Source: an uncultured Candidatus Poseidoniales archaeon
Lineage (GTDB): Archaea > Thermoplasmatota > Poseidoniia > Poseidoniales > Poseidoniaceae
Length of the DNA stretch: 64,000 nt
Reading direction: 5' to 3'
Assembly (NCBI GenBank): GCA_964526445.1
Contig: CAZGIY010000001.1
Coordinates: forward strand, 20,363-84,362
The notes below the pieces were generated by a model. That model was given only the letters and a program-made list of their open reading frames with translations, was not told where the DNA came from and did not search any database. Every line of letters begins with the position of its first letter. The first letter of the stretch is position 1. Made by a program: the position numbers and the translations under genes. This document shows, piece by piece, positions 10,777 through 37,404 of the stretch.

Positions 10777-10810
10777 CGGTGAAGGAATGCTCTCTTATCC
10801 ATTACCACGT

Positions 10811-13516: not shown

Positions 13517-15461
13517 TCATACCTCCAAAAGACGCTGGCCACTTCTTCATAGTAGAGCGGATAGGCATCATCGCTAGACCCCCGAGTGCACATAGTGAAG
13601 TGGAACTCATTATATCATCGAGGTCGTCCAAAAGTTGTCGGTCTCCAATCTTTTCATGCTCGGTACCTATCCTTCTCAATAGTTCCAGTGCACGCTGCGT
13701 GCCTATTCTACAAGGAGTGCATTTCCCGCAACTCTCATCTCTAAAGAATTTCATCCAACCTATGGATTCTTCACGGGGATCAAATTCACTATCATAGCAA
13801 ACGAATCCTCCATGTCCAAGAAGACCTCCAGACTCGCTTAACCCTTCGAATGATAACTCCACAGAATCCAATTCTTCGATAGCAAATACTCCTCCCAATG
13901 GGCCCCCAGCTTGGACAGCAACAACTCCTTCAAGGTCAGAATGTTTTCTGAACATCTCAGCGACAGTTCCTCCAAATGGTATTTCCACGCATACTGGCTC
14001 TTTGACAGCACCTACAATTTGAGCGATAACTGTGCCCTTACTCCTCTCAGTACCCAATGACCCATACTGTTCTCCTCCTTCTCTTAATATCACAGAAACC
14101 AATGCAAAGGTGAGGACATTGTTGACAATTGTAGGTTTACCATAGAGTCCTGATTGAGTAGGATATGGTGGCCTTGCTCTTACTTCACCCCTCCTTCCTT
14201 CAAGACTTTCTAGAAGCGCTGTTTCCTCGCCACAGACGTACGAACCAGCCCCCAAAGCGATTGAGATGTCGAAATGATCACCTAGAATCCCTTCATCCCT
14301 AGCGTCCTGAAGTGCAGTTTCAAGAATCAACTCAGCATTTGGATATTCGCTTCTAAGGTAGACCTTGCCATATCTTGCGCCGATAGCAGAGCCACATATT
14401 GCCATCCCTTCGATTAAGGCATGAGGGTCCCCTTCGATAATCATCCGGTCGATGAAAGTACCAGCATCACCCTCGTCAGCGTTGGCGACCACGTACTTGA
14501 CATCACTTTCCTCTGCTGCAGCTGCAGCCCACTTGAAATGAGTAGGGAATCCAGCACCACCGCGCCCCCTCAATCCAGCAATTTCGAGTTCATTCAAAAT
14601 CTCTCGAGTACCGATTTCTTTAGCTTTGTTAAGTCCAGAATATGAACCTCTTTTCCTAAGACCTTCAATATCTAAGGGATTTACTTCTCCAAGATTGGCC
14701 ATAGCAAAACGTCTTTGCTCAGCGAATGCAGGAATCTCAACAATCTTACCCAATGACTTAGCGTGGTTAGAATATTCACCAGAATCAATCAAACTAAGAA
14801 TCTCCATTAACTCTTCAGAGTTGATAGGTCCAAATCCACATCTTTCTCCGTTAATGTCCAATTCCAGCATCGGTTCTAGATTGAAGATGCCTCTGCTACC
14901 AGTTCGAATCAGTGCGGAATCGTCGGGAGCGTGATGCAGCAATGTTACTGCCAACTTTTCACTTCCCTTCTCCATACTCATGCTGTCTTGACTGATGTAG
15001 AATTGTAATCCAGCCCCCGCCCTTGAAACAGGATTAAATTGTTCAACATCTTCCTTGACAATTGCTGGACCTACTGCACACAAGCCTGCGCAGTGTAATG
15101 AACCAATCTTCTCTCCAGCATTCTCCAATTTTTCAATGACTCCTGCGGCGCCTCTTGCCCTACAGGCCTCTCCAGTACATACTCTGATTGTGGCCTCCTC
15201 TGGCTTGAGTTCAGCATAGTAACCTATGGCGCCTCTGACCTTTGCAGAAGTTGTTCCCGTAAGTGAGGCGATTTCTGCGATTCTTTCGACACTTGGCTCA
15301 CCTTTGGTTCGCACTTCTTCTTTCAAAATGTCGAGAAGCTCGTGTCCTGGACGAGCGGGGTCCCAATCATTCTCAACAGGATTCATTCTTTCACCTCCTT
15401 CTGCTCTTAGGTTTGCGTAGGTAGATGGGTTTGTCAAAGTTCTCCAGAAATATTCTTTCAA
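13506..15461 (-). CDS. fdsB: Formate dehydrogenase beta subunit, fused NuoE-like/NuoF-like (NAD+/FMN/Fe-S)
   Basis: GRGGAGFPTHFKW FMN/NAD site, ESCGKCTPCRIG 4Fe-4S, and an N-terminal thioredoxin-like 2Fe-2S (NuoE) part. Overlaps fdsA start by 11 nt. Confidence 0.85.
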   Translation of the reverse strand: MKEYFWRTLTNPSTYANLRAEGGERMNPVENDWDPARPGHELLDILKEEVRTKGEPSVERIAEIASLTGTTSAKVRGAIGYYAELKPEEATIRVCTGEACRARGAAGVIEKLENAGEKIGSLHCAGLCAVGPAIVKEDVEQFNPVSRAGAGLQFYISQDSMSMEKGSEKLAVTLLHHAPDDSALIRTGSRGIFNLEPMLELDINGERCGFGPINSEELMEILSLIDSGEYSNHAKSLGKIVEIPAFAEQRRFAMANLGEVNPLDIEGLRKRGSYSGLNKAKEIGTREILNELEIAGLRGRGGAGFPTHFKWAAAAAEESDVKYVVANADEGDAGTFIDRMIIEGDPHALIEGMAICGSAIGARYGKVYLRSEYPNAELILETALQDARDEGILGDHFDISIALGAGSYVCGEETALLESLEGRRGEVRARPPYPTQSGLYGKPTIVNNVLTFALVSVILREGGEQYGSLGTERSKGTVIAQIVGAVKEPVCVEIPFGGTVAEMFRKHSDLEGVVAVQAGGPLGGVFAIEELDSVELSFEGLSESGGLLGHGGFVCYDSEFDPREESIGWMKFFRDESCGKCTPCRIGTQRALELLRRIGTEHEKIGDRQLLDDLDDIMSSTSLCALGGLAMMPIRSTMKKWPASFGGMNGE

Positions 15462-15464
15462 AGT

Positions 15465-16340
15465 CTAATTAGAATCGTTTGGGCGGATATAGGAAACTGT
15501 ACTCCCATTTCTTGTAAAGCCAAATAACGCTAGTCCTGCTTGTCTAGACAGATCTACTGCCATACTACTTGCAGCACCTATGGCTACTATGATTGGAATC
15601 CCTGCAGCGATTGCTTTGAGCACTAATTCAGAGCCAATTCTTCCAGAAAGACATAGTATTGACTTGGAGAAATCAATGCTCATTCGGACGCCAGCTCCAA
15701 CCACTTTGTCAACACAATTGTGTCGGCCAATATCTTCTCTGACAACAATCATTTCACCCTCGGCTGTGAACAATCCAGCAGCATGAATTCCCCCAGTGGT
15801 CGTGAATGCAGACTGTACGGTAAGCATCTTATGTGGCAATCCGATCAAAAGTTCGCTATCAACATGCATAGCAGGAATGGAACAGTCATGGGCCTTGGAT
15901 AGAAGATCTGCAAAATCTTGACGTCCACATATGCCGCATGCAGAACCATTACTGATTCTGCCCCTTGGGGTAACGTCATATTCAGCATCCTCGGGAATGA
16001 TGATACTAGCATTTCCTTCAGACAAGATGATTTCGATATCCTGTATTGGGCAATTAGTCAAAATCCCTTCACTGATTAATAGTCCCAATACCAAATCAGC
16101 GTCAGAACCGGGGGTTCTCAAGATACTGACCCAGCGTTCAGTAGAATCATTCTTAACCAAATCAATACTCAATGGTTCTTCTGTGGCAACCACATCTTTC
16201 TCCATTACCCACTTGCCATCCTTCAATCGATGAACGGCGCGTCTGACCACATCGTCCATGACAAGACCTGAAGCAACATGGTCATGAACATGTTCATCGA
16301 TTGAAATGGTTTCAAGATTCCAATCTCGCTCGCACAGCAT
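15465..16340 (-). CDS. fdhD: Formate dehydrogenase accessory sulfurtransferase FdhD
   Basis: FdhD-like with SACGICG cysteine loop and GRHNCVDKVVG motif. Lies 3 nt upstream of fdsB. Confidence 0.75.
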   Translation of the reverse strand: MLCERDWNLETISIDEHVHDHVASGLVMDDVVRRAVHRLKDGKWVMEKDVVATEEPLSIDLVKNDSTERWVSILRTPGSDADLVLGLLISEGILTNCPIQDIEIILSEGNASIIIPEDAEYDVTPRGRISNGSACGICGRQDFADLLSKAHDCSIPAMHVDSELLIGLPHKMLTVQSAFTTTGGIHAAGLFTAEGEMIVVREDIGRHNCVDKVVGAGVRMSIDFSKSILCLSGRIGSELVLKAIAAGIPIIVAIGAASSMAVDLSRQAGLALFGFTRNGSTVSYIRPNDSN

Positions 16341-16953
16341 CCATGCATTCTCTCGATAATTGCCTCGATTTCTCTAGAATCTGTGCCGCTTCTTCGCTAT
16401 ATTGCTCAGCCGCATCACCTTCCATTCCAATCAGGTTGATATCAACATTGAACAGGGCACCTTTACAGGCTGCTGAAGCAAGCAGGGCCGCAACTCCGAC
16501 ATCGGTCACTGCATTTCCGTTACCAGTGGTCGCAAGTGATGGAAGCGTTTCAAGCAACGAATAGGCAAGTCTAGCGGTTTCTAAGGGTACCTCTGCTGCA
16601 CCAAGAGTCGCTTCTCTAATGGCTTGTTTGCGAAGGTTTTTCTCTTCATCAGAATCCTTGGCAAGTCGATATGCCATCATGACTCCGTCAAAGGAACGAC
16701 TGTCGTCAGTTGCGAGGTCTAAAGAACGAGAAAACATCGATATTGCAACTTCTTGAGAAGTTTCTGCATCCTGCCAGCCATCTTTCCATTTTTCATTACC
16801 TATGGTAAGATCCGCAACCATGCAAGTCAATGCCGCCGCCTGTCCTAAAGAGACCGCAGCCGCAGTTCCACCCCCGGGGGTTGGAGATGAACTAGCAAGT
16901 GCAGTTTGGAAGTCCCGCAAACTCATTTCCGCCCAGTCATCATCACTCTGCAT
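16312..16953 (-). CDS. Formimidoyltetrahydrofolate cyclodeaminase (FTCD C-terminal domain homologue, stand-alone)
   Basis: SLRDFQTALASSSPTPGGGTAAAVSLGQAAALTCMV closely matches the cyclodeaminase domain of FTCD. Confidence 0.8.
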   Translation of the reverse strand: MQSDDDWAEMSLRDFQTALASSSPTPGGGTAAAVSLGQAAALTCMVADLTIGNEKWKDGWQDAETSQEVAISMFSRSLDLATDDSRSFDGVMMAYRLAKDSDEEKNLRKQAIREATLGAAEVPLETARLAYSLLETLPSLATTGNGNAVTDVGVAALLASAACKGALFNVDINLIGMEGDAAEQYSEEAAQILEKSRQLSRECMDAVRARLES

Positions 16954-17996
16954 TATTCATCCCTCCTGACTGCCATCTCAATGATTCTTTCCTTCGCTAC
17001 GAATGGGGCCAAGTCATCCAAGCCCATACCCTTTACTGCAGCGCTGATTAATTCCCCCTCCTCCTCTGTATCAGGTGCGTACCATCGCCCAGCATCCAAC
17101 ATTGCACGAATTGGCACCAGTCCTACCAATTCACTACCACTAACTTCGACACCGTAATTGCTAGCCAACCATTTGATTGTCTCGTAAACAACATGCATCG
17201 GAGTAACAGAGATGTCTTGTAGGTTCATGGAGACTTGAGAGATTCCATGTTCATCCAGTGGAAAACCCATACCCTGGACTTTTGCAAGCATTCCCGATAC
17301 CGGCAACCGATTTCCGTTAGAATTTTTTATGACTGGTCCTGATTGCCTGATGGTTTTGCCAATTGCTGCACTGACTCTTGCATCACTTTCCTGCAGATTG
17401 ACATTGTATGCAACCAAAATGTCTCTCGCACCGATAATCACCGCACCTGTTTTGGCGATTTCTTCACTCCAAATAGTCGGTCCAAAATCAGGCAATCTCG
17501 TCTCATTTGCATGAGGAGTTTCCGCTCCTTCACTCATTCTAGCTTCAAGTCCCTCGTATTCGCCCTTTCGGAGCAGACTGTGGTTACTCCTTTGTTCTGT
17601 ACTCGCTGCTGCACCGTATAGATATGCAGGCAGATTCAATTCTTCACTGACACGAATAGCAAGTCGTCTGGCTAATTCTGCGCAACTCAGCATATCGATA
17701 CCCTGCAATGGGACGAATGGACATACATCTACTGCCCCTAACCTCGCATGATTTCCACTATGTTTTCTCATGTCGATTAGTTTGATTGACTCTTTAATCA
17801 ATTGAAAGGCTGATTCACTGACCGCATTTGGATCACCAGCCAAAGTAATGACAGTCCTATTGTAATCGGCATCAGGTTCTGCCGAGAGAACTCTACAGCC
17901 ATCGATACTTGAGGCTGCAGCAACAACTGCTGCAATTACTTCTTCATCTATTCCTTCGCTGATATTCGGAACACATTCAACCAAAGGGTTGGTCAT
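16953..17996 (-). CDS. Glutamate formimidoyltransferase (FTCD N-terminal domain homologue, stand-alone)
   Basis: MTNPLVECVPNISEG...NRTVITLAGDP...HARLGAVDVCPFVP is collinear with the formiminotransferase domain of mammalian FTCD. A 1-nt overlap (ATGA) with the cyclodeaminase gene indicates translational coupling. Confidence 0.85.
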   Translation of the reverse strand: MTNPLVECVPNISEGIDEEVIAAVVAAASSIDGCRVLSAEPDADYNRTVITLAGDPNAVSESAFQLIKESIKLIDMRKHSGNHARLGAVDVCPFVPLQGIDMLSCAELARRLAIRVSEELNLPAYLYGAAASTEQRSNHSLLRKGEYEGLEARMSEGAETPHANETRLPDFGPTIWSEEIAKTGAVIIGARDILVAYNVNLQESDARVSAAIGKTIRQSGPVIKNSNGNRLPVSGMLAKVQGMGFPLDEHGISQVSMNLQDISVTPMHVVYETIKWLASNYGVEVSGSELVGLVPIRAMLDAGRWYAPDTEEEGELISAAVKGMGLDDLAPFVAKERIIEMAVRRDE

Positions 17997-26972: not shown

Positions 26973-28091
26973 TTAGTTGATGCCATGCGAGTATTGATGT
27001 TCTCGGCAAGAATTTCTACTTCCATCATGTTGTCCTTCCTGTAGTGGGTCGAAAGGATCACTTCCATCTGGGTCCAGCCGACTCAGTGGGAAAGAAGTGA
27101 CCCTCAGTCCACATTTACCATGCAAAGAGGTAGGGTATCTGATGACTCGGTGGCAATCGACAGTAACTACTTCATCAGTCTCCCCAGCATTGCCCAAAAC
27201 TACGGCAGCATCGCTTCGTAATATATCGATAAATGCATCACGATGGAAATTAGAATCACTTTTTCGCCCACCTAGTGCATTGAGATTTCCATCTTCTAGA
27301 CTGTCCCTTCTAACTGGGTGCTTAACAAGTTCCGCTAGGTCTTTCACAACCTTTTCACCGCGCGTTGTTTTCAATCCCCTGATTTTGGCAGACCTCCTGA
27401 GTGAATCAACGTAATTTGCAATCAATGCTTTGGATTGTTCATCGTTTGATTCTCTGATAGTATCGAGTTTTCTTAGTGTGTCCCTAAGTCCATTCTTCAG
27501 TCGCCCTGCCCATCCCGAAGCATCTCTCTCCATCGATCTTGGCAATAGTGAGATGACATCTACTCCATCACCTCTAAAGTGCGAAACTAATTCCCTACGC
27601 GCCTCTCCATCAAGATGTGCCAATCCAGGATCCCTATAGTGAAGGTGAAATCCTCTATGTCCGGAGAAAGTCAAGTGCAGATATCTTTCATCAAAACCAA
27701 ATTCAGGTTCTAGAAAGTCATTCCATAATTTCCAGGCCTGTTCGCGAATCAACGTCAACATACCAGTGAAATCGGTATCTACTACACCTGGTAAGTGGTC
27801 TCCATCAAGGTCAAAGATTAAATCCGCACCTAACCATCCTTTGTCCTTCATCTTATATTCACGCGGGTCTCTCCAATATGCAGTACTGTAGAACACAGAA
27901 TGTGGGGTCCTTTCAATTAGATTCCTTTTGATACTCGATAGGTCATCGAAGCCCATATGTCTGAGGGGCCTACCCCCACCAAACGGAATCAACATCCACT
28001 CCCTAGTACGTAAGCGAGGGGGGATCCAGCCATCGAAAGATCGGTAATATTGCTCGAACCTATGAGCAAAAAGCGACCATCCCTTGACCAT
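26973..28091 (-). CDS. priS: DNA primase small (catalytic) subunit PriS
   Basis: Archaeo-eukaryotic primase fold with the LIFDLDGDH catalytic aspartates and conserved SVFYSTAYW / RGFHLHY regions. Confidence 0.8.
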   Translation of the reverse strand: MVKGWSLFAHRFEQYYRSFDGWIPPRLRTREWMLIPFGGGRPLRHMGFDDLSSIKRNLIERTPHSVFYSTAYWRDPREYKMKDKGWLGADLIFDLDGDHLPGVVDTDFTGMLTLIREQAWKLWNDFLEPEFGFDERYLHLTFSGHRGFHLHYRDPGLAHLDGEARRELVSHFRGDGVDVISLLPRSMERDASGWAGRLKNGLRDTLRKLDTIRESNDEQSKALIANYVDSLRRSAKIRGLKTTRGEKVVKDLAELVKHPVRRDSLEDGNLNALGGRKSDSNFHRDAFIDILRSDAAVVLGNAGETDEVVTVDCHRVIRYPTSLHGKCGLRVTSFPLSRLDPDGSDPFDPLQEGQHDGSRNSCREHQYSHGIN

Positions 28092-28145: not shown

Positions 28146-28355
28146 TTATCGGTAGAATGGGCGCTCTGTATCTTTGCCTGCAGTTGCTGAAGATACTCCA
28201 GTTATTTCCTGATAGCATTTCCAACATGCATAGTGTTCATCGATAGGAATTGATTGGCCAAAGGTCAATCTCTTACCGCACCCGTGGCAAAGAGGACCAA
28301 GCTCCCCATTAGGTGCTGCAGCCAATGGAACATGGTCATGGGGCATGCGTCTCAA
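28146..28355 (-). CDS. Small zinc-ribbon protein
   Basis: CHGCG...CWKC. Confidence 0.3.
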   Translation of the reverse strand: MRRMPHDHVPLAAAPNGELGPLCHGCGKRLTFGQSIPIDEHYACWKCYQEITGVSSATAGKDTERPFYR

Positions 28356-28402: not shown

Positions 28403-28870
28403 TCATTCATCGATTAGATGATGATTTAGCAGGTCCAGTGCAACTTCACAGGATTCAGCAACTTCAATAGATGGGTCATAGAGAAAACGGTTGAGGATTT
28501 TGCGACTATTTTGATTACCTATTGCCCCCATCGCTTCTGCAGCCTCATGTCTCACCATGACATGTTCCTCGAGGTCTTCTAGTCTACTATTCAGTGCTGG
28601 TAATGCTCTCGAGTCCTGCATCTGTCCCAAGACGTATGCCAATTCATGTCTCAATAGTGCTGAAGCGCTAGAAAATCCACTACACAAAGCATCGACCGCC
28701 TCTTTTCCACCAATATTACGAAGAGCAAAAACGGATCTCATCCTCACAAACATCCTCTCAGTTTCATTATTCAAAACTTGTTTCAGAGTTTCTACATCCT
28801 TTTCCTCTGAGGGAGGAGCGGGGTCTACTGAGCCAAATTCACTGACCTCGGGAATATTTCCATCATTCAT
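28403..28870 (-). CDS. Half-size deoxyhypusine-hydroxylase-like HEAT-repeat protein (two His-Glu motifs)
   Basis: VRMRSVFALRNIGGKEAV...ALLRHELAYVLGQMQDSRALPAL...HVMVRHEAAEAMGAIGN...DPSIEVAESCEVALD. HEAT (PBS-lyase-type) repeats with paired H-E dipeptides at the positions used by DOHH for its di-iron site. Start moved to ATG 28870 to remove a 41-nt overlap with the upstream gene. Confidence 0.55.
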   Translation of the reverse strand: MNDGNIPEVSEFGSVDPAPPSEEKDVETLKQVLNNETERMFVRMRSVFALRNIGGKEAVDALCSGFSSASALLRHELAYVLGQMQDSRALPALNSRLEDLEEHVMVRHEAAEAMGAIGNQNSRKILNRFLYDPSIEVAESCEVALDLLNHHLIDE

Positions 28871-28871
28871 A

Positions 28872-29780
28872 CTAAGATGACCTCCCGATGAATTCGATTG
28901 AATCAGGCTCAAATTCTGCAGAGACCATACCTATTTCTTGCCCCTTCTTGAGGAATCTACGAATTGCTTCTCTTCCTTCATCTCCATAGTCAATAGTACG
29001 TTCATTGACATACATTTTAACGAATTTTTCATTTGTTTGATCATCGATACCTCGACCCCATGCCTTAGCAAATTCCAGCGCCTGCTCTGGGTTCTCAAGT
29101 GCATGTATAATACTCAATCTCGTCCAATTGGTGATGTTCTCAATCGTTTTACGACCGAGATCCTTGCGGACAATATTGCCGCCCAACGGTAATGGCAATC
29201 CATCATTATGTTCTGACCACCAAACTCCAAGATCAAGATGAACGTCAAGTTCATGCTCAACATAGGTCAATTGCCCTTCGTGGATGATAAGGCCTCCATC
29301 AACTTCTCCGGAATTGACAGCCTCGATGATCTCGTCGAATGGGATAACTTTGATTGAAACATCGCCCCAAGCCATTCGCAAACCTAGATAGGCGCTAGTC
29401 TTCAACCCAGGAACTGCAATCAATCCTCGCTTGATTTCTTCCGTCTCACTACCGCTTTTTGCTACTACCATCGGTCCATATCCCTCCCCCATACTGGCGC
29501 CACAATTCATCAGGGCATAATCTCCAGCAACCTCGGGGAACGAGTGAATACTGATTGCACTGACTTCTAGTTCTCTGTTCATCGCGCGCTGGTTCAAAGT
29601 TTCTATATCCTGTAATTCATGAACGAAGTGATAGCCTGGAGTGGATATCAATCCGGAAGTCAAAGCATGGAACATGAAAGCATCATCTGGATCGGGTGAA
29701 TGACCTATTCTTACAACCTTGAAAGATTCAGAGTTCAAGTCATTCTGTTCATCCATGATGCGCCGAAATGGGGCCCTCAT
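28872..29780 (-). CDS. MqnA/MqnD-family protein (likely 1,4-dihydroxy-6-naphthoate synthase MqnD, futalosine pathway)
   Basis: VRIGHSPDPDDAFMFHALTSG resembles the MqnD N-terminus LGYSPCPNDTFIFDAL. Periplasmic-binding-protein-like fold family. Confidence 0.5.
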   Translation of the reverse strand: MRAPFRRIMDEQNDLNSESFKVVRIGHSPDPDDAFMFHALTSGLISTPGYHFVHELQDIETLNQRAMNRELEVSAISIHSFPEVAGDYALMNCGASMGEGYGPMVVAKSGSETEEIKRGLIAVPGLKTSAYLGLRMAWGDVSIKVIPFDEIIEAVNSGEVDGGLIIHEGQLTYVEHELDVHLDLGVWWSEHNDGLPLPLGGNIVRKDLGRKTIENITNWTRLSIIHALENPEQALEFAKAWGRGIDDQTNEKFVKMYVNERTIDYGDEGREAIRRFLKKGQEIGMVSAEFEPDSIEFIGRSS

Positions 29781-29853: not shown

Positions 29854-32418
29854 GTGTGCCGACAAAGATTCTATTTCAGATGGGGTGATGCAGCAGCGAG
29901 GATAGTCATGCGGGTACGCGGTGGGCCACTTGTCGCTTTACTGCTAACTTCGCTTTCAGTTATTGCACTTGCACAAGCTGCAACACCTAGTGGCATGGGA
30001 TTTGTTGGTGCGCATACAGTGGTTAGGGAAAGTTTCGATGAAACGCATAGCGTTGCCCTTTCTCCAGACGCCTCCCTTATTGCCACAGGGACTGAAGGAT
30101 ATGTTATTATTTCGCGCATATCCGATCGTTCTATAGTTGAAAGAATATCAGTAGGGGACCAAGTAACTGCTCTAGAATTCTCTCCCGATGGAGAATATCT
30201 CGCTTTGGGGCTTAGGTCTGATGCCCTTTCGGGGGATGCACTTAAAGTGCTATTCACTGATGATTGGAGGGAGTACGAAAAGACATTTGCTAATGGTAAA
30301 AATCCCAGTGACATTTCATTCTCTGATGCGGGAGATAAGATACTTCTTCAGGGTCAGGACAAAGATGTGTTCGAGTTGTCATTCCCCGAATTTTCCATAT
30401 TGGGTCACATGACGGGGCACCATTTGGATGATATTACGTGTACAGATTATGGATATGGGGGATTGATAGCAGTATCTGGTGGATTGGATGGTAAAATCGC
30501 TTTCTGGGATCTTTCAGATCATTCACTTTCCTCATCAATTGAGTTCGAGGATTCTGAAATTGTTGATTGTTTATTCAATCCATCATCTTCTCAAGTTGCC
30601 ATCTTGACAGATGACGGAAAAGTTAGATCATATTGGTTGAACGGGACTTTGGTTGAAGGCTCAGAACTCGATTTCCTACAAGCTAAGGAGCTCAAGTGGA
30701 GCCTTAATGGAAACCATCTATATGTATTGGAAACCAATATTTTGCCTTCTTTGCAGCGTGTGAGAGTGAATGATTGGATAGTCGATGAGTTCACTTACAT
30801 AGGTCACAATGTGAATGGATTTGATTTATCGGATGATGAAGAGACATTAGTGATTAGTACTGGAACTGTACATACGAGTGTATATCAGTCGACGTACTTC
30901 CAGCAAGGTTTTGGTGAGCCGGGAGATGATTTTGATCAAGATGGAGTGCCAGACGTAATCGATGTTGATGATGATGGTGATGGAATTTTGGATATTTACG
31001 ACCTCAACTGTTCTAGTTCAGATTGTACCAAGGACCCACATCCCAATTATATGCGAAATATTGAGTTTCAAGTATCTGATGAGGAGTTAATCATAAGCGA
31101 TAGCATATCATTCAATAGATCCGATTCTAATGCATTGAGAAATTTGACTACAAGTCTACTTTCTGATGATAACAAAATTAGTGTCGACGAATTAACTTGG
31201 ATGTCAACTGCCATGTGCGATAATATTAGACATAGGGATGTTATTGATCAATGGCATTCAATGATTGAGGTTGAGGGTTCACAATTGAGCAATGGAACAC
31301 TATCCTGTGAACCCGTATCTGGAATTTCTTCCAATGATTTCAGCGATTTTAGTCATAGGGCAACTCTTACTTGGATTACAACATTTGATTTATCGAGTGC
31401 TCCAATTGCGCCCTACAATATTACAGTAAAGGGAATTATCCTTGCTCCTACTGGCTCTTCCGCAATCATTGCCCCACAGTTCCCGGCTTCAATCGATTTT
31501 GCCGATTTGAATTCAGAAAATAATCGAATTGACTTGTGGAATCGGAACGAAACGATTAGAATTGTCTTGATGGAAGAATTGGAGGAAGAAGGACCTGGAT
31601 TGACTGGCTTAGTAGCGTCGTTCATTTCAGACAATTTTTGGATTCCAATAAGCAGTTTCCTTGGAATCTTTATTGGTATCGGATTGATTATCAAGCAAAA
31701 CAAGGACATTTCTAATGCATTGATTCGTGGGGGTAGAGAGGAAGATGAAGAGGGGGAAGATGAAGAGGATGATTATGATGAATCATTCAATGACTCAAAT
31801 CTATATGAATCTGAACATTACGAGGAGTCCGATTCCGCTGACGACGAGTCAACATGGAGTAACGAATCAGAGTCTATGCCTCCTCGGCCAAAACGGCGCC
31901 CTCCTCGAAAATCTACGAGAAGAGTAGCACATGAAGAGTATCCTATCGGTGATTCTACTCCTGTCAAGGCTAGGAGAAAGCGCGTTAGTAGTAAACAACC
32001 AATTGGTTCTAAGCGACACACTCTTTCTGAATCTGTAGAATTGGATTATGATTATGGCCAAGACGGAGTATATCATGATGGTGATTGGGATACAGAGTAT
32101 GACATTTACGAACAGCCCCAGACCAAAGTACGCAAAGTGCGTAAAGTGGAAAGCGTTCCTGAACTTGAAGCGGAAGAATCCAAGCCGGAGCAAAAGAAAG
32201 GAAGAAGGAAGGTTAAGAGGCGCAATAACGAGAAAGGAAAAGCCTCCAGTAAAGCAGTGGATGATGATTCCATCGTTGCAAAGAAAGTTGTTACGTCCAA
32301 GAAACGCAGTTCAGGGTCAAAGAAAACTCAAGATGATGGAGGCAAAGTCTCGTCTGATGATGAAGATTCAGCAATGGACAAAGCATTGGGTATGTTAACG
32401 GGTGATTCCAAGGATTGA
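29854..32418 (+). CDS. Secreted/surface beta-propeller protein with thrombospondin-type-3-like Ca-binding repeats, C-terminal TM anchor and highly charged cytoplasmic tail
   Basis: Signal-peptide-like LVALLLTSLSVIALAQA. WD40/PQQ-like repeats. DQDGVPDVIDVDDDGDGILDIYD. A C-terminal TM segment (ISSFLGIFIGIGLII), then an E/D- and K/R-rich tail. Confidence 0.7.
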   Translation: MCRQRFYFRWGDAAARIVMRVRGGPLVALLLTSLSVIALAQAATPSGMGFVGAHTVVRESFDETHSVALSPDASLIATGTEGYVIISRISDRSIVERISVGDQVTALEFSPDGEYLALGLRSDALSGDALKVLFTDDWREYEKTFANGKNPSDISFSDAGDKILLQGQDKDVFELSFPEFSILGHMTGHHLDDITCTDYGYGGLIAVSGGLDGKIAFWDLSDHSLSSSIEFEDSEIVDCLFNPSSSQVAILTDDGKVRSYWLNGTLVEGSELDFLQAKELKWSLNGNHLYVLETNILPSLQRVRVNDWIVDEFTYIGHNVNGFDLSDDEETLVISTGTVHTSVYQSTYFQQGFGEPGDDFDQDGVPDVIDVDDDGDGILDIYDLNCSSSDCTKDPHPNYMRNIEFQVSDEELIISDSISFNRSDSNALRNLTTSLLSDDNKISVDELTWMSTAMCDNIRHRDVIDQWHSMIEVEGSQLSNGTLSCEPVSGISSNDFSDFSHRATLTWITTFDLSSAPIAPYNITVKGIILAPTGSSAIIAPQFPASIDFADLNSENNRIDLWNRNETIRIVLMEELEEEGPGLTGLVASFISDNFWIPISSFLGIFIGIGLIIKQNKDISNALIRGGREEDEEGEDEEDDYDESFNDSNLYESEHYEESDSADDESTWSNESESMPPRPKRRPPRKSTRRVAHEEYPIGDSTPVKARRKRVSSKQPIGSKRHTLSESVELDYDYGQDGVYHDGDWDTEYDIYEQPQTKVRKVRKVESVPELEAEESKPEQKKGRRKVKRRNNEKGKASSKAVDDDSIVAKKVVTSKKRSSGSKKTQDDGGKVSSDDEDSAMDKALGMLTGDSKD

Positions 32419-33218
32419 TTCATTTGATCGCTCAACTTGAAATCATCAATCTCTAGAACTTCAGAAATGAACATTTCTAGTCCTGCTTCCACTTCACTGT
32501 CGAAATCATAGAGAACTTCTTCAAAATATCTTCTGATACGATCCTCATTGAATCCACTTCTGGCTGAACACAGGGAAACAACTTCCTCCTTGACTTCGGG
32601 GCTTCGGAATGAATTGAGGGAATTCTGTAATTCCGCATACGCATCACTGACAATATCCGGAGGGGCATCTCGATGGGTAGCAAAAACAGCAAACACCATT
32701 GGCAAACCAGTAACATCCTTCCATTCCATACCAAGATCCATACGAACGAGGTCAGGCCTTCTTTGAGCTTCATGTAATGCTCTATCTCCAATCAGCAAGG
32801 CTCCGTCGCATCTCTCCAACATACTTTCCAGATCGGGCCCCATTTCCACAGGTCGCGGATCATGTCCGCGCTTCTTCAGAAGATACATCAATAATCGTCT
32901 TGAGGTTGCAGAATCGGTAGGTAATGCAACATCTCTCATATCGTCAATTTCTCTTTCACCAAATAATAGCACACTCCCAACACTTCCGTCAGATATGATA
33001 CCCATTCCTGGCACTAAGGATAATTCATTTCTGTTCAATGCCCAGTCCGCAGCAGGAATAGGGGCAATCAGGCAGTCCTTTCTGAGTAGGTGTCCAGTCA
33101 ACCAAGCAGGTGGGGCAGCGAGAATCTTCCACTTGTCTGAGATTTGGTGATATAGTGGGTCACAATTGAGGAATGCGACTCTTCCCAATGTACGCTGCCA
33201 TGTCGATGTATTTTCCAT
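32328..33218 (-). CDS. mqnA: Chorismate dehydratase MqnA (futalosine pathway)
   Basis: RVAFLNCDPLYHQI matches the MqnA N-terminal (I/V)G.I.(F/Y)LNC.P(L/I) signature. PBP-like fold. Confidence 0.6.
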   Translation of the reverse strand: MENTSTWQRTLGRVAFLNCDPLYHQISDKWKILAAPPAWLTGHLLRKDCLIAPIPAADWALNRNELSLVPGMGIISDGSVGSVLLFGEREIDDMRDVALPTDSATSRRLLMYLLKKRGHDPRPVEMGPDLESMLERCDGALLIGDRALHEAQRRPDLVRMDLGMEWKDVTGLPMVFAVFATHRDAPPDIVSDAYAELQNSLNSFRSPEVKEEVVSLCSARSGFNEDRIRRYFEEVLYDFDSEVEAGLEMFISEVLEIDDFKLSDQMNQSLESPVNIPNALSIAESSSSDETLPPSS

Positions 33219-33227
33219 TATATCACC

Positions 33228-34445
33228 TCACTTAACCATCGGCAGGGATTTTCTCCGCGAAACTCGGTCAGCAACGACTCGTTCGAACTTATTGTAAACA
33301 GTATTTCTGCGAACTGCATCGCATCCAGATCTCTCAATGAGCCTACACATGTCATCAATTCCATGATCTAGCGGGGCCGTTGATCCAGCGAGGTGCATTA
33401 TTGATTCTTGAAGTACGGTTCCGTCCACATCATCGGCTCCACAAGAAATCGCTATCTCTGTCAAGGCATCCCCAATATTCATTCTATATGCCTTGATGTG
33501 TGGAATATTGTCCAACATCAAACGGCTTATTGCAATCATGCGTAATATCTCGTTAGCGCTGGCCAATTGGGCTTCGGGTAGCCTGGTTGAGTCTGGAAGG
33601 AATGGATAGGGTACGAAGCATTGGAAACCATTGGTCTCATCTTGTAGTTCTCTAAGTTTGAGCAGGTGTTCAATACGCTGCTCGGGAGTCTCAACAGTGC
33701 CGAACAACATGGTGCAATTTGTAGGAATGCTAAGATTGTGTGCACTTCTGTGAATGTCCAAGTATTCTCTACTGCTCTCTTTACCCCTGCAAATCTTCTC
33801 TCTAACTGAATCCACTAAGATCTCTGCACCACCTCCTGGAATACTTCCTAATCCCGCTTCGGACAACATTTCCAAGGTGTCACTGATACTGATATTCGAC
33901 AGAGAGGAAATGTGCTTGATTTCAACCGCAGTCAGGGCCTTGATATGGAGTTCTGGATACCTTTGTTTCGTCCTTCGGAATAATTCACAATAATGTCCAA
34001 CATCCCAGTCAGGATGTAATCCTCCTACCGAATGAACTTCGTCTATTATCTCAGAATATGGTTCGATCATTGAAATGTATTTCTCTATATCCATGGCATA
34101 TGCATCTGTTGCTCTTCTTCCGCGCCTAAAAGCACAGAACTTACAAGCAAGAACACAGATATTTGTTTGATTAACGTGAATATTCAGATTGAAATGGATG
34201 TCCTTTCCAAATCTTGCCCGCTTGCAAATATCTGCCATAGACAAGATGCTTCCAAGATCTTCATGAAGTAATAGTGCGAGTCCATCTTGACCTGTTATTC
34301 TTCCATCAGTAATCAAACGGTCTCGGATATCTTCAAGCACCTCATCCAGCCCATTTAGGGCGAGTAAACCGTTGCTTTGGGATCTCATCCAGTCCGAGTT
34401 GAAACCAGGTTGGCGCATGCAATCCCAACCCCTCGTCATGGACAT
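33228..34445 (-). CDS. Radical-SAM menaquinone biosynthesis enzyme, MqnC/MqnE family (aminofutalosine synthase or cyclic dehydroxyfutalosine synthase)
   Basis: CVLACKFCAF CxxxCxxC motif and CofG/CofH/MqnC/MqnE-like TIM barrel, adjacent to mqnA. The track ORF start (34517) would overlap the ATPase gene by 47 nt, so an internal ATG at 34445 or 34385 is more likely. Confidence 0.6.
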   Translation of the reverse strand: MSMTRGWDCMRQPGFNSDWMRSQSNGLLALNGLDEVLEDIRDRLITDGRITGQDGLALLLHEDLGSILSMADICKRARFGKDIHFNLNIHVNQTNICVLACKFCAFRRGRRATDAYAMDIEKYISMIEPYSEIIDEVHSVGGLHPDWDVGHYCELFRRTKQRYPELHIKALTAVEIKHISSLSNISISDTLEMLSEAGLGSIPGGGAEILVDSVREKICRGKESSREYLDIHRSAHNLSIPTNCTMLFGTVETPEQRIEHLLKLRELQDETNGFQCFVPYPFLPDSTRLPEAQLASANEILRMIAISRLMLDNIPHIKAYRMNIGDALTEIAISCGADDVDGTVLQESIMHLAGSTAPLDHGIDDMCRLIERSGCDAVRRNTVYNKFERVVADRVSRRKSLPMVK

Positions 34446-34470
34446 CAAGAATGAATGCTTGTATTGCCCT

Positions 34471-37404
34471 TCATCGCTTGAAGGAAGGGGTGTTGCCAAG
34501 TTTGGTCTTGAGTACACCCTCTCTGAGCATTATCTTACGGAACTCTTCTATCCATAAGACAGAGGAGGAAATCAACAATAACACTAGCCAAGTAGTCCAG
34601 TTGAGGAATTTGGTCGATAATAACTCTCCAATCATCAAATCAGAGAATGGTAAGGTGAATGTTGAATTTTGAACTACAAATAACAACAATGCAGAACATC
34701 CAATCAATGAATAATTGATCGCCCGATTGCTGAATAATCCTAGTTTGAATACACTGTCAGTAACACTCCTGCAATTGAGGATGTTAAAGAATTGGAAGAG
34801 AGTAAATACGGCAAATGCAGCAGTCCTCGCAACTTCGAATCTTTCTTCAGCCCAATTTGTCCAAGCCTCTTCATCGCACAGCCCTTCTTCAGAAGCAGCC
34901 AATTTTCCATCGAAGTAGATATTTCCATTATCGAAAGTACCCATAGTACAATGATTTTGAGCCTTTACTGATCCATCAGCAATGTAGAACACGGTTAACG
35001 TTCCAACAACCATTATCGAAGCAGTCCAAAATATCAAAGCCATATCGATGAGATTTGGCAATCCTTCATTGACAGGCTTTGGTGGAACACTCATAACGCT
35101 TCCATGCTTCTTTTCTACGCCTAGGGCAACTGCAGGTGGTCCATCCATCAGGATATTGATGACAAGTATCTGAGTTGCAGTAAATGGCAGGTCCCATCCA
35201 AATACGAAAGTGGAAATTATGATGATAGCAACTGCAGCTACATTGGTGGAAATCTGATATCTTACGAAGTTACGTATGTTCTGGTAAATCTTCCTTCCCT
35301 CTTCTACAGCATGGACAATGTTGGCAAAGTTATCATCCTGTAGAACCATGTCAGCAGCGTCTTTCGCCACATCAGTACCTGCCATACCCATCGCAATTCC
35401 AATGTTGGCTTTCGATAAAGCAGGAGCATCATTGACTCCATCACCAGTCATGGCGACCACTTCTCCGCGTACCTGTAAAGCACTGACAATACGCATCTTT
35501 TGGTCAGGAGTTACTCGATGATATACATCGGTTTGACCCGCCTTATCGATTAATTCATCATCACTCATCTCAGAAAGTGCATAGCCACTCAAGGATTCAG
35601 AATGTTTACCTGCGATATCCAGATTTTGTCCTATTGCTAGTGCTGTAATCTCTTGATCACCTGTAATCATCTTCACGCCAATACCTGCGGCTTTGCAGAT
35701 TTTGATAGCATCCTTGACCTCGGCACGAGGAGGATCCATGATGGCAACCAAGCCAAAGAGTATCAGATTATTTTCCATGCTTGCCATGTCGGTGGTATCT
35801 TCCCCTTTCTCAACTCTGCGCCCGCATAAAGCAAGAACTCTCATCGCCTGGGCTGCCATTTCTCGATTGGCATTTAGCACCGAATCGATGTCCCCTTGTT
35901 TGATTGGCTTCTCTTGATTATTTACGACGATCTTTTTGACTAGGTCCCTGTAGCCGCCTGCAGCACCTTTGGACAATACCCAAGTTTCACCATCAATCTC
36001 TGTTATCGTGCTCATTCTCTTTCTTTCTGCATCAAAGAAGAATTCAAATGAACGTGGAAACATTTCACCTAGATTTTCTATATCTCCATGAACTTTCCAA
36101 CCAAACACAGCACACGCGGAGTCTGTAGGGTCTCCGATGGCCTCCCATGCTCCATCGAATTTGTGCACTGTACTGTTGTGGCACAGAGCGGCGCACAAAC
36201 TGCCCATTCTGAAAGCAGGGTTTTCCATCATTTGTTCTAACCCTTCAGATGATAATCGCTCACCCTTAGAAACAACTCCTCCTGCTGTCGGGTCAAAACC
36301 TTCACCAGAAACATCGTATTCTTCATCTGGCGTCCAGAATTTTCTGACAGTCATCTGGTTCTTGGTCAAAGTTCCCGTTTTATCAGTACAGATGACGGTG
36401 GTAGAGCCTAAGGTTTCGACTGCCTTCATTCTTCGAACGATAGCCTTGTGTCGAGCCATGTTTCGCATACCTAGCGCCAAAGTAATGACTAGAATGATTG
36501 GCAAACCTTCAGGAACGATAGCAACAAAGATTGCTATGGCTACAATGAATTGATCGATTGCAACCTCAAGTAGACTCCGGCCATCGGGTTGAAGATATGC
36601 TACTACTAATTCCAATGAAACCAGAAGTACTGCTACAAATAATGCGATGAATCCCAAGAAACGACCGAGGGATTCGAGTTTAATTTCAAGGGGCGTCTTT
36701 GGTGTTTCAGCATCGGCAATCCCACTTGCGATGTGACCCAATTCGGTCTTCATCCCTGTAGTAACAACTATTCCAACGGCTCTGCCACTAGATGCAACAG
36801 TTCCCATGAAAGCCATATTTGATTGTTCGGCCAAAATACGTTTACCTTGAATTGATGTCGTCTTTTTGGTTACAGTATCGGACTCTCCAGTCAATGCCGA
36901 CTCGTTGATTTTGAATTGGTAGACTTCGGTCAATCTGACATCTGCAGGGATGTTGTGTCCTTCCTCCATTTTGACAATATCACCGGGAACAAGTTCGAAT
37001 GTGGGTATCTCGAGTTCCCTACCTTCTCTTTCAACAATACAGTTACTTACTGCCATTTGTTTCAGAGCATCCATCGCCTGCTCTGCTTGGTTTTCTTGCC
37101 AATATCCGAAAACTGCGTTGATGGTCAATACCAAGCAGATGAAAATCGCATCTCCAGGCTGCTCAAAACTATGAATTACCAAGGATATGACTGCTGCTCC
37201 CATTAGTAGGAATATCAACGGATCGTTGAATTGAGACAGTAGACGTAGCCACCATGCATCTCTTTCAGGTTCATCGAGTTTATTCGGACCATATTCTTCG
37301 AGTCTTTTTCCCGCTTCTTCGTCGCTCAAACCTTCTGGAGCGGTAGATAATTTAGCATAGACTTCATCTTGCTTCATGGCAAACCAATCTCTATCTGCAG
37401 TCAT
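34471..37404 (-). CDS. P2-type Ca2+-transporting ATPase (SERCA/PMCA-like)
   Basis: ICTDKTGTLT phosphorylation site, TGDGVNDAPAL, PEGLP in M4, N/D in M6 (INILMDGPPA). Ala at the position of SERCA E771, i.e. PMCA-like with a single site. Cation_ATPase_N-like N-terminus. Confidence 0.85.
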   Translation of the reverse strand: MTADRDWFAMKQDEVYAKLSTAPEGLSDEEAGKRLEEYGPNKLDEPERDAWWLRLLSQFNDPLIFLLMGAAVISLVIHSFEQPGDAIFICLVLTINAVFGYWQENQAEQAMDALKQMAVSNCIVEREGRELEIPTFELVPGDIVKMEEGHNIPADVRLTEVYQFKINESALTGESDTVTKKTTSIQGKRILAEQSNMAFMGTVASSGRAVGIVVTTGMKTELGHIASGIADAETPKTPLEIKLESLGRFLGFIALFVAVLLVSLELVVAYLQPDGRSLLEVAIDQFIVAIAIFVAIVPEGLPIILVITLALGMRNMARHKAIVRRMKAVETLGSTTVICTDKTGTLTKNQMTVRKFWTPDEEYDVSGEGFDPTAGGVVSKGERLSSEGLEQMMENPAFRMGSLCAALCHNSTVHKFDGAWEAIGDPTDSACAVFGWKVHGDIENLGEMFPRSFEFFFDAERKRMSTITEIDGETWVLSKGAAGGYRDLVKKIVVNNQEKPIKQGDIDSVLNANREMAAQAMRVLALCGRRVEKGEDTTDMASMENNLILFGLVAIMDPPRAEVKDAIKICKAAGIGVKMITGDQEITALAIGQNLDIAGKHSESLSGYALSEMSDDELIDKAGQTDVYHRVTPDQKMRIVSALQVRGEVVAMTGDGVNDAPALSKANIGIAMGMAGTDVAKDAADMVLQDDNFANIVHAVEEGRKIYQNIRNFVRYQISTNVAAVAIIIISTFVFGWDLPFTATQILVINILMDGPPAVALGVEKKHGSVMSVPPKPVNEGLPNLIDMALIFWTASIMVVGTLTVFYIADGSVKAQNHCTMGTFDNGNIYFDGKLAASEEGLCDEEAWTNWAEERFEVARTAAFAVFTLFQFFNILNCRSVTDSVFKLGLFSNRAINYSLIGCSALLLFVVQNSTFTLPFSDLMIGELLSTKFLNWTTWLVLLLISSSVLWIEEFRKIMLREGVLKTKLGNTPSFKR

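What the first reader, a model, noticed from the sequence alone, without database searches (positions are those of the whole stretch)
28403..28912. Half-size deoxyhypusine hydroxylase (DOHH)-like protein with two His-Glu motifs
The 156 to 169 aa protein consists of PBS-lyase-type HEAT repeats. Two of them carry an H-E dipeptide (RHELAYVLGQMQD, RHEAAEAMGAIG). This is the hallmark that distinguishes DOHH, which builds its di-iron centre from four HE motifs, from generic HEAT proteins. The protein aligns residue-by-residue with one symmetric half of eukaryotic DOHH (my recall of the human sequence: ...LLKHELAYCLGQMQD...MVRHEAGEALGAIG...VIEVAETCQLA...). A homodimer would recreate the four-HE site. 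Archaea make deoxyhypusine or hypusine on aIF5A, but an archaeal hydroxylase is poorly defined. A half-length ancestral DOHH would be notable both functionally and evolutionarily.
Basis: partly seen in the sequence, partly recalled or inferred. Interest (0 to 1): 0.75.

Follow-up and report, generated by a model that had tools for sequence, protein, structure and literature searches.

The report
Half-length archaeal deoxyhypusine hydroxylase homologue
Marine Group II archaea carry a conserved gene for exactly one half of the eukaryotic enzyme that completes the hypusine modification of translation factor 5A, although the papers read here say archaea have no such enzyme; two copies probably pair up to form the two-iron active site.

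Summary
ORF 28403..28912 (-) is most likely 155 aa from the ATG at 28870. It encodes four HEAT hairpins with two His-Glu motifs.

Its best match among solved structures is human deoxyhypusine hydroxylase (DOHH, 4D4Z), E = 2e-69. It aligns to both halves of that enzyme. An AlphaFold model (pLDDT 93) superposes on half of 4D4Z (TM 0.91-0.93, rmsd 1.2 Å, 48-49% identity).

The gene is native and single-copy. It was found in 80 species genomes, labelled Poseidoniales where the label is specific, and all in the same gene neighbourhood. Both His-Glu motifs, the substrate-binding Gly and an N-terminal SVDPAP motif are invariant in 81 orthologues. dN/dS is about 0.07. All 27 columns conserved in both eukaryotic halves keep the same residue.

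The archaeal protein is equidistant from the N- and C-halves (162.0 vs 162.5 bits). It is closer to each half than they are to each other. This fits divergence at or before the internal duplication.

Poseidoniales also encode aIF5A with the hypusination loop. Three papers (2016-2021) state that archaea lack a DOHH orthologue, and I found no report of this family.

Not shown: the homodimer (the tandem model failed), iron binding, enzyme activity, and deoxyhypusine synthase in these genomes. A conserved operon with mqnD leaves a rival substrate open.

The parts
28403..28870 (-). Coding sequence of the half-length DOHH homologue (155 aa plus stop, from the ATG at 28870). The mechanical ORF extends to a TTG at 28912 (169 aa).
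   Evidence: ORF list. The 155-aa product P0001 is called identically in NCBI, JGI, Logan and ENA. PDB best hit is human DOHH, E = 2.1e-69. The model has pLDDT 93 and matches 4D4Z at TM 0.91-0.93. dN/dS is 0.07-0.08.
28811..28852 (-). N-terminal conserved segment PEVSEFGSVDPAPP (residues 21-34 of the 169-aa numbering). It corresponds to the inter-domain linker motif of eukaryotic DOHH.
   Evidence: P21, S28, D30, P31, A32 and P33 are invariant in 81 orthologues. The same [FY]xSVDPAP motif precedes the C-half in eukaryotic DOHH (D and P in 98% of 126 proteins) and is absent before the N-half. It aligns to human 'YLSVDPAPP'.
28613..28651 (-). First His-Glu motif, RHELAYVLGQMQD (R88-D100). H89/E90 correspond to human H56/E57 and H207/E208. 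G96 corresponds to human G63/G214.
   Evidence: Alignment to 4D4Z. H89, E90 and G96 are invariant in 81 orthologues. Residue roles are from PMC9117371.
28517..28552 (-). Second His-Glu motif, RHEAAEAMGAIG (R121-G132). H122/E123 correspond to human H89/E90 and H240/E241.
   Evidence: Alignment to 4D4Z. V120-A127 are invariant. Residue roles are from PMC9117371.
28872..29780 (-). Upstream gene for an MqnD-like protein (1,4-dihydroxy-6-naphthoate synthase family). Its stop codon lies 1 nt before the ATG of the DOHH homologue.
   Evidence: Pfam VitK2_biosynth, E = 3.7e-64. PDB hits are TTHA1568 (2czl/3a3u, 'menaquinone biosynthetic enzyme') and AF1704. It lies directly upstream on the same strand in 76 of 80 genomes, mostly with gaps of -8 to +12 nt.
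26973..28091 (-). Downstream neighbour, the archaeal primase small subunit PriS. Context only; it shows the locus is archaeal.
   Evidence: Pfam DNA_primase_S and NCBIfam PriS. Present in 78 of 80 loci, in one of two orientations relative to the mqnD/DOHH pair.

Best explanation
This is a native, strongly conserved gene of Marine Group II archaea (order Poseidoniales). It encodes a four-HEAT-repeat protein homologous to one half of eukaryotic deoxyhypusine hydroxylase. Each chain carries one complete set of iron ligands (His89, His122, Glu123) and the residues that bind the deoxyhypusine side chain in the human enzyme (Glu90, Glu123, Gly96). The most likely mechanism is that two chains pair head-to-head. 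The pairing would reproduce the pseudo-twofold arrangement of the eukaryotic enzyme, with a non-haem di-iron centre on the dimer axis. That centre would activate O2 and hydroxylate C2 of the deoxyhypusine residue on aIF5A to give hypusine. The relationship would resemble that of homodimeric retroviral protease to bilobed pepsin. Shown here: homology, fold, residue conservation, purifying selection, distribution across many Poseidoniales genomes, and the presence of the substrate protein aIF5A. Inferred: dimerisation, iron binding, substrate and activity. On origin, the archaeal sequence is equidistant from the two eukaryotic halves. It therefore most likely split from the eukaryotic lineage at or before the internal duplication, rather than being a cut-down copy of a modern eukaryotic gene.
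For: Homology: PDB phmmer finds human DOHH at E = 2.1e-69, with both halves aligned. The nearest non-MGII relatives in two very large protein libraries are two-stretch proteins of about 240-460 aa; those that carry a name are eukaryotic DOHH.
Fold: the AF2 model has pLDDT 93 and eight helices. Foldseek gives 4D4Z at TMq 0.91-0.93, rmsd 1.2 Å and TMt 0.50; generic alphaRep proteins reach only about 0.70.
Active site: H89, E90, G96, H122 and E123 are invariant in 81 orthologues. All 27 columns that are at least 80% conserved and identical in both eukaryotic halves carry the same residue in MGII. Residue roles come from PMC9117371.
Selection and nativeness: dN/dS is 0.07-0.08 and GC matches the neighbouring genes. 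There is one copy per locus in 80 genomes, including single-cell genomes, in conserved archaeal synteny.
Substrate: Poseidoniaceae and Thalassarchaeaceae encode a 126-128-aa aIF5A with the loop SKSKPGKHGSAKAR.
Origin: MGII sequences score 162.0 bits against the N-half HMM and 162.5 against the C-half HMM. Each eukaryotic half scores better against the MGII HMM than against the other half. Consensus patterns are M=N only 18, M=C only 17, N=C only 12. Identities are 0.446 and 0.468 against 0.387 between N and C.
Against: No dimer model was obtained.
Iron binding and activity are untested, and the organisms are uncultured, so the modification state of their aIF5A is unknown.
Deoxyhypusine synthase was not located in any Poseidoniales genome here. 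Its presence rests on the literature statement that all archaea have it.
The gene sits in a conserved, tightly coupled pair with mqnD in 76 of 80 genomes. That could indicate a different pathway.
The family was seen only in Poseidoniales. It therefore does not explain hypusine in Crenarchaeota.
Tree bootstraps are low, so the branching order is not resolved.
Confidence: 0.65

Rival explanations
1. The protein has the same fold and the same di-iron chemistry but a different substrate. It would hydroxylate a small molecule or another protein, possibly linked to the futalosine/menaquinone genes with which it forms an operon.
For: An mqnD-like gene lies directly upstream on the same strand in 76 of 80 genomes, mostly at -8 to +12 nt. 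The pair stays together while PriS changes side. mqnA and a radical-SAM Mqn gene are nearby.
Against: As far as I know, the futalosine pathway to menaquinone needs no hydroxylase (my knowledge of the pathway, not tested here). The residues that bind the aminobutyl chain of deoxyhypusine in human DOHH are invariant. At 45-49% identity to DOHH halves, a change of substrate would be unusual. In L029, and apparently also in L033 and L084, the gene stands alone behind a divergent PriS gene.
Confidence: 0.15
2. Rival on origin. A Poseidoniales ancestor acquired a full-length DOHH from a eukaryote and kept only the linker plus the C-terminal half, which then worked as a homodimer. The protein would be derived, not ancestral-like.
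For: The family was seen only in one archaeal order. The N-terminal SVDPAP motif is shared with the linker and C-half of eukaryotes. The protein is marginally closer to C than to N (0.468 vs 0.446; 128 vs 106 bits including the linker).
Against: In the 124-column core, MGII shares as many states exclusively with N (18) as with C (17). It scores equally against both half-HMMs. A C-half derivative should be no closer to N than C is, yet it is closer (0.446 vs 0.387). The NJ point estimate gives three separate clades, and nesting within C appears in only 19% of bootstraps.
Confidence: 0.2
3. The protein is active, but not as a symmetric homodimer with a di-iron site. It could be a mono-iron monomer, or it could pair with an unrelated partner.
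For: No dimer evidence was obtained. Each chain has only one metal-ligand set.
Against: No second HEAT paralogue exists in the 64-kb window or within 6 kb in any of the 80 genome loci. Every residue conserved in both halves of the eukaryotic pseudo-dimer is retained, which fits a chain that must play both roles.
Confidence: 0.1
4. It is a generic PBS-lyase-type HEAT scaffold protein with no catalytic role, or a contaminating fragment of a eukaryotic gene.
For: Pfam and NCBIfam give only HEAT_PBS, HEAT_2 and weak NblB/CpcE hits.
Against: NblB scores 37.5 bits against a cut-off of 300, and CpcE 18.9 against 330. The His-Glu motifs are invariant and are absent from the generic alphaRep HEAT proteins aligned. 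The gene lies between archaeal mqnD and PriS in 80 genomes, including single-cell genomes. Full-length forms sit on eukaryotic contigs.
Confidence: 0.03

Closest known systems
Eukaryotic deoxyhypusine hydroxylase (DOHH / Lia1 / Mmd1, EC 1.14.99.29; structure 4D4Z)
   Same: It has the same HEAT-hairpin fold (TM 0.91-0.93 to half of 4D4Z). Identity to either half is 45-49%. The His-Glu iron ligands, the substrate-binding Glu and Gly residues and the MVRHE and LGQMQ motifs are identical. The [FY]xSVDPAP segment is also shared.
   Different: It has four HEAT repeats and two His-Glu motifs in about 155 aa, against eight repeats and four motifs in about 300 aa. A single chain cannot build the di-iron site. 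It occurs in an archaeal order rather than in eukaryotes, and it lies in an operon with mqnD.
Phycobilisome lyase / NblB-type HEAT_PBS proteins (CpcE, CpcF, NblB) and the alphaRep scaffolds derived from thermophile HEAT_PBS proteins
   Same: The repeat type is the same (Pfam HEAT_PBS, HEAT_2), and the helical-hairpin geometry is similar (TM about 0.65-0.71).
   Different: Those proteins have no His-Glu motifs in the printed alignments. Identity is only 24-33%. The curated NCBIfam cut-offs are missed by a factor of about 10. The organism is not a cyanobacterium.
Homodimeric retroviral aspartic protease versus bilobed pepsin (analogy for the architecture only)
   Same: A half-size subunit supplies half of a single active site that sits on a twofold axis. 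The longer relative is an internally duplicated, fused version.
   Different: The fold and chemistry are unrelated. This comparison comes from my own knowledge and was not tested here.

Membership tests
Deoxyhypusine hydroxylase (DOHH) | Significant sequence similarity to characterised DOHH that exceeds similarity to any other HEAT protein | tested here: met
   4D4Z scores E = 2.1e-69 and 236 bits, against 137 bits for the next hit, an artificial multi-repeat protein. The top non-MGII hits in the 5.8-billion and 1.84-billion-protein libraries are two-stretch proteins; those that carry a name are eukaryotic DOHH.
Deoxyhypusine hydroxylase (DOHH) | HEAT-repeat alpha-hairpin fold superposable on DOHH | tested here: met
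   The model has pLDDT 93. It matches 4d4z_A/B at TMq 0.91-0.93 and rmsd 1.2 Å over 147-149 columns.
Deoxyhypusine hydroxylase (DOHH) | Eight HEAT repeats arranged as a symmetrical dyad of two four-repeat arms in one chain | tested here: not met
   The model has eight helices, i.e. four hairpins, in 155 aa. TMt to 4D4Z is 0.50. All 84 stop-to-stop ORFs are 153-175 codons, with no adjacent second copy.
Deoxyhypusine hydroxylase (DOHH) | [quoted passage not shown] | tested here: not met
   There are two per chain (H89-E90, H122-E123). Four would exist only in a dimer, which was not demonstrated.
Deoxyhypusine hydroxylase (DOHH) | Iron-ligand residues equivalent to H56, H89, E90 and H207, H240, E241 | tested here: met
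   H89, H122 and E123 align to these positions in both human halves. They are invariant in 81 orthologues. Roles are from PMC9117371.
Deoxyhypusine hydroxylase (DOHH) | Residues that bind the deoxyhypusine side chain (E57/E208, E90/E241, and the Gly of the LGQ motif) | tested here: met
   E90, E123 and G96 are invariant. All 27 of 27 columns conserved in both halves are retained. The review prints G65 and G214; by my count of the sequence the N-half Gly is G63.
Deoxyhypusine hydroxylase (DOHH) | Binds two Fe, forms a peroxo-diiron(III) intermediate, and hydroxylates deoxyhypusine on IF5A | not testable with these tools
   This needs recombinant protein, metal analysis and an activity assay.
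Deoxyhypusine hydroxylase (DOHH) | The substrate pathway is present in the same organisms (aIF5A with the modifiable Lys; deoxyhypusine synthase) | tested here: inconclusive
   aIF5A with the loop SKSKPGKHGSAKAR was found and is named as Poseidoniaceae, Thalassarchaeaceae or Poseidoniales. DHS was not found in the DNA available here. Its presence rests on the literature only.
Phycobilisome lyase / NblB (NCBIfam NF045915, NF058502) | Score above the curated equivalog cut-off | tested here: not met
   NblB scores 37.5 bits against a cut-off of 300. CpcE scores 18.9 against 330.
Pfam HEAT_PBS / HEAT_2 repeat class | Score above the Pfam gathering threshold | tested here: met
   HEAT_PBS scores 57.1 bits (cut-off 20.9). 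HEAT_2 scores 53.4 (cut-off 27.7). This describes the repeat type only, not the function.

The most novel reading that the evidence does not exclude
The Poseidoniales protein is a living representative of the pre-duplication, homodimeric form of DOHH. Eukaryotic DOHH would then have arisen by tandem duplication and fusion of such a half-size gene, with loss of the N-terminal SVDPAP segment from the first copy. On this reading the eukaryote-type hypusine hydroxylase is of archaeal origin, or was exchanged with archaea before the last eukaryotic common ancestor. An abundant euryarchaeal plankton group would then make fully hydroxylated hypusine with the eukaryote-type enzyme.
Probability: 0.4. 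Interest if true: 0.85.

Novelty: new variant of a known kind. Interest (0 to 1): 0.72.

Why it matters
Hypusine on IF5A is among the most specific protein modifications known. Some archaea make hypusine, yet reviews and primary papers up to 2021 say that no archaeal DOHH orthologue exists.

This family is an unambiguous DOHH homologue in one of the most abundant archaeal groups of the surface ocean. It gives a concrete, testable candidate for an archaeal hypusine hydroxylase.

Its half-length architecture is also a natural experiment on how the pseudo-symmetric eukaryotic enzyme arose. A 155-aa subunit that must supply both sides of a di-iron site is a minimal system for studying the unusually stable peroxo-diiron intermediate.

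It does not settle how Crenarchaeota hydroxylate deoxyhypusine, because the family was not seen outside Poseidoniales.

Tried and rejected
1. Homodimer modelling. I submitted a head-to-tail tandem of the 155-aa protein, which mimics a duplication and fusion, as a single sequence. The result was pLDDT 42.6 and pTM 0.27, which is uninformative.
2. Foldseek against afdb50, intended to find other prokaryotic half-size relatives by organism name. The library was not available.
There were no hits. aIF5A was later found by a metagenome pattern scan. DHS is adjacent to aIF5A in 16 non-MGII loci but in none of the MGII loci.
4. Neighbour-joining trees of N-halves, C-halves and MGII sequences. The point estimate gives three clades, but bootstraps are low (0.16-0.39). 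One rogue C-half (P0241) joined the MGII clade in the large set. No maximum-likelihood program was available.
5. Diagnostic N-versus-C columns at a 60% threshold. Only three columns qualified (2 N-like, 1 C-like), which is too few. I replaced this test with HMM cross-scoring.
6. Viral contigs: no relative was found.
7. Park et al. 2006 (PNAS) and Han et al. 2015 (Structure) are not held in the library.
8. The idea that full-length hits on long metagenome contigs might be prokaryotic. P0030 sits among HSP90, protein kinase and PTPA genes, so that contig is eukaryotic.
9. Other archaeal lineages. The representative search lists only the best 150 hits (down to 165 bits). More distant half-size families, if any exist, could not be seen.
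Full report
**The observation**

The minus-strand ORF 28403..28912 exists as described, 169 aa from a TTG. An ATG at codon 15 (28870) lies one nucleotide after the TAG stop of the upstream gene. It gives the 155-aa product that four public sources call identically (P0001). Conservation among orthologues begins at Pro21, so the 155-aa form is the likelier protein.

Both quoted motifs are present: RHELAYVLGQMQD with H89-E90 and RHEAAEAMGAIG with H122-E123. Pfam reports only HEAT_PBS and HEAT_2. NCBIfam gives weak NblB and CpcE matches, 37.5 bits against a cut-off of 300 and 18.9 against 330.

**Homology to DOHH**

phmmer against all PDB sequences puts human deoxyhypusine hydroxylase (4D4Z) first at E = 2.1e-69. 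The query aligns separately to both halves of that enzyme:
- chain residues 9-133, 106 bits
- chain residues 140-288, 128 bits

The second alignment includes the segment 'SVDPAPP'. The next hits are artificial alphaRep proteins. In the printed alignments they carry R-R/Q/Y-A/S where this protein has His-Glu.

A model built from 50 orthologues has pLDDT 93 and pTM 0.87, with eight helices, i.e. four HEAT hairpins. Foldseek against PDB gives 4d4z_A/B at:
- TM 0.91-0.93 normalised to the query
- TM 0.50 normalised to the target
- rmsd 1.2 Å
- 48-49% identity

alphaRep proteins reach a TM of about 0.70, and CpcE reaches 0.65.

**Who has it**

Among 5.8 billion proteins, the closest relatives are 144-175-aa proteins. 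Where named, they come from Candidatus Poseidoniaceae. Some were auto-labelled 'deoxyhypusine monooxygenase' by JGI. Next come 240-300-aa proteins; those that carry a name are eukaryotic DOHH, at about 45-52% identity.

In the library clustered at 50% identity, the best 150 hits contain only two single-stretch half-size clusters (P0201, P0259). The rest are two-stretch proteins or giant HEAT-repeat proteins. P0259's cluster has members named Thalassarchaeaceae.

A scan of one genome per GTDB species returned 80 loci from 80 assemblies:
- Where the label is specific, they are Poseidoniales, covering both MGIIa and MGIIb.
- The rest carry generic archaeal labels, and two carry bacterial labels.
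- Several single-cell genomes are included.

Every locus has exactly one copy, on a stop-to-stop ORF of 153-175 codons, with no second copy within 6 kb. The window has no paralogue. One full-length relative that I checked lies on a eukaryotic contig with HSP90, protein kinase and PTPA genes.

GC content matches the neighbouring genes. dN/dS against the two closest orthologues is 0.07-0.08. The gene is therefore native, widespread in the order, and under strong purifying selection.

**Active-site conservation**

In 81 distinct orthologues, 56 positions are at least 98% conserved. They include H89, E90, G96, H122, E123, the MVRHEAAEA and LGQMQ blocks, and S28-x-D30-P-A-P33.

A review of DOHH assigns residue roles as follows (PMC9117371):
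- H56, H89, E90, H207, H240 and E241 anchor the di-iron centre.
- E57, E90, E208, E241 and two conserved glycines bind the deoxyhypusine side chain.

These map onto H89, H122, E123, E90 and G96 of the archaeal protein.

I split 126 eukaryotic DOHH sequences into halves. Every one of the 27 columns that is at least 80% conserved and identical in both halves has the same consensus residue in MGII. One chain thus holds one full metal-ligand set and one full copy of the substrate-contacting residues, but only one. A di-iron centre therefore needs two chains. This step is inference. My attempt to model a tandem fusion without an alignment failed (pLDDT 42.6).

**Relationship to the two eukaryotic halves**

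Mean identities over the 124-column core:

| Comparison | Identity |
|---|---|
| MGII vs N-halves | 0.446 |
| MGII vs C-halves | 0.468 |
| N-halves vs C-halves | 0.387 |

HMM cross-scoring, mean bits:

| Sequences | HMM | Bits |
|---|---|---|
| MGII | N-half | 162.0 |
| MGII | C-half | 162.5 |
| N-halves | MGII | 131.5 |
| N-halves | C-half | 125.9 |
| C-halves | MGII | 144.3 |
| C-halves | N-half | 138.2 |

Three-way consensus patterns:

| Pattern | Columns |
|---|---|
| All same | 56 |
| MGII = N only | 18 |
| MGII = C only | 17 |
| N = C only | 12 |
| All differ | 21 |

The archaeal lineage therefore sits at the centre of the three-way comparison and has the shortest private branch. No internal branch joins it to the C-half.

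The only C-like feature is the N-terminal [FY]xSVDPAP segment. It is 98% conserved (D and P) in the eukaryotic inter-domain linker and is invariant in MGII. The N-half starts at the protein's N-terminus and simply lacks that region.

Neighbour-joining gives three separate clades in the point estimate, but bootstraps are low. Nesting within C appears in 19% of replicates and nesting within N in 29%.

I read this as divergence at or before the internal duplication. It fits poorly with recent capture of a modern eukaryotic C-half. I cannot determine the direction of any ancient transfer. I also cannot say whether other archaea have more distant versions, because the listed hits stop at 165 bits.

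**Genomic context and the main rival**

The upstream gene, 28872..29780, is MqnD-like (Pfam VitK2_biosynth; PDB TTHA1568 and AF1704). mqnA (32328..33218) and a radical-SAM Mqn gene (33228..34517) lie further upstream.

In 76 of 80 genomes the mqnD-like gene is immediately upstream on the same strand, mostly with gaps of -8 to +12 nt. The pair stays together while PriS is found either downstream on the same strand or upstream on the opposite strand. L029, L033 and L084 lack an mqnD-like gene directly upstream. In L029, the one I inspected, the gene stands alone behind a divergent PriS gene.

This conserved coupling is the best argument for a different substrate. However, as far as I know the futalosine route has no step that needs a hydroxylase, and the residues that contact deoxyhypusine are invariant. 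I give this rival about 0.15.

**Is the substrate there?**

The window and the syntenic loci contain neither aIF5A nor DHS. A metagenome scan for the archaeal hypusination loop returned 120 loci. Ten carry a distinct 126-128-aa aIF5A (MPGTxRVEIRTLKVGRY...SKSKPGKHGSAKAR). One of them has a tetranucleotide correlation of 0.92 with the window. Exact look-up names these proteins as IF-5A of Candidatus Poseidoniaceae, Thalassarchaeaceae or Poseidoniales.

DHS lies next to aIF5A in 16 other archaeal loci but in none of the MGII loci. DHS in this order therefore remains untested here. Its presence rests on the statement that all archaeal genomes have it (PMC5178350).

**Comparison with what is known**

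Three papers state that no DOHH orthologue has been found in archaea: PMC5178350 (2016), PMC6105217 (2018) and PMC8153317 (2021). Full-text searches combined DOHH, deoxyhypusine hydroxylase or hypusine with Poseidoniales, Marine Group II, Thermoplasmatota, Asgard and other archaeal names. They found no paper that mentions both. The only prior trace is automatic KO-style labelling in JGI.

The protein works like DOHH in every feature I could test. It fails two architectural criteria of the family: eight repeats and four His-Glu motifs in one chain. I therefore file it as a new variant of a known kind, a half-length and presumably homodimeric DOHH, not as a plain member.

**Verdict**

Confidence that this is a homodimeric di-iron hydroxylase acting on deoxyhypusinated aIF5A is about 0.65. 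Interest is 0.72. The finding is an unexpected, well-supported and directly testable candidate for an archaeal hypusine hydroxylase, and it bears on how the eukaryotic enzyme arose. It is limited by the lack of any biochemical or dimer evidence and by its apparent restriction to one order.

Noticed in passing
window 29854..32418 (+): An 854-aa WD40 beta-propeller protein with a hydrophobic segment and a long acidic, Lys-rich tail. It sits on the opposite strand between mqnA and mqnD. Only 36 of 80 related loci have a homologue, at about 32% identity, so it is a variable insert in an otherwise conserved gene order.
   Followed up: partly
window 4235..6142 (-): A 635-aa protein with an N-terminal double zinc ribbon and several canonical EF-hands (EF-hand_1, E = 3e-23). 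This is an unusual domain combination for an archaeon.
   Followed up: no
window 46198..47223 (-): A 341-aa actin-fold protein matching MreB_Mbl, Salactin and Volactin models.
   Followed up: no
L006, L068 (genome loci); P0115: Public assemblies labelled 'Yoonia sp.', 'Deltaproteobacteria bacterium AH-558-G13' and 'Woeseia sp.' carry this Poseidoniales-type gene. L006 showed the Poseidoniales gene order (mqnD upstream, PriS downstream); I did not check L068 individually. These labels or bins look wrong or contaminated.
   Followed up: partly
L086-L205 (metagenome loci): Deoxyhypusine synthase lies next to aIF5A in 16 of 120 archaeal metagenome loci, but in none of the 10 Poseidoniales-type loci. 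Poseidoniales aIF5A is also distinct: it is at most 48% identical to the other archaeal aIF5As retrieved.
   Followed up: partly
window 28146..28355 (-): A 69-aa ORF with two CxxC pairs (weak zinc-ribbon hits) lies between the DOHH homologue and PriS. Public gene calls omit it and instead start PriS further upstream. It may not be a real gene.
   Followed up: no
L029 3508..3990 (also L033, L084): In three genomes no mqnD-like gene lies directly upstream of the DOHH homologue. In L029, the one inspected, the gene follows a divergent PriS gene after a gap of about 340 nt and overlaps a convergent 265-aa ORF at its 3' end. I did not identify that ORF.
   Followed up: partly
window 7164..17996 (-): A histidine-utilisation set (HutH, HutU, formiminotransferase) flanks genes for a formate-dehydrogenase-like molybdopterin enzyme, a NuoF-like subunit and FdhD.
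   Followed up: no
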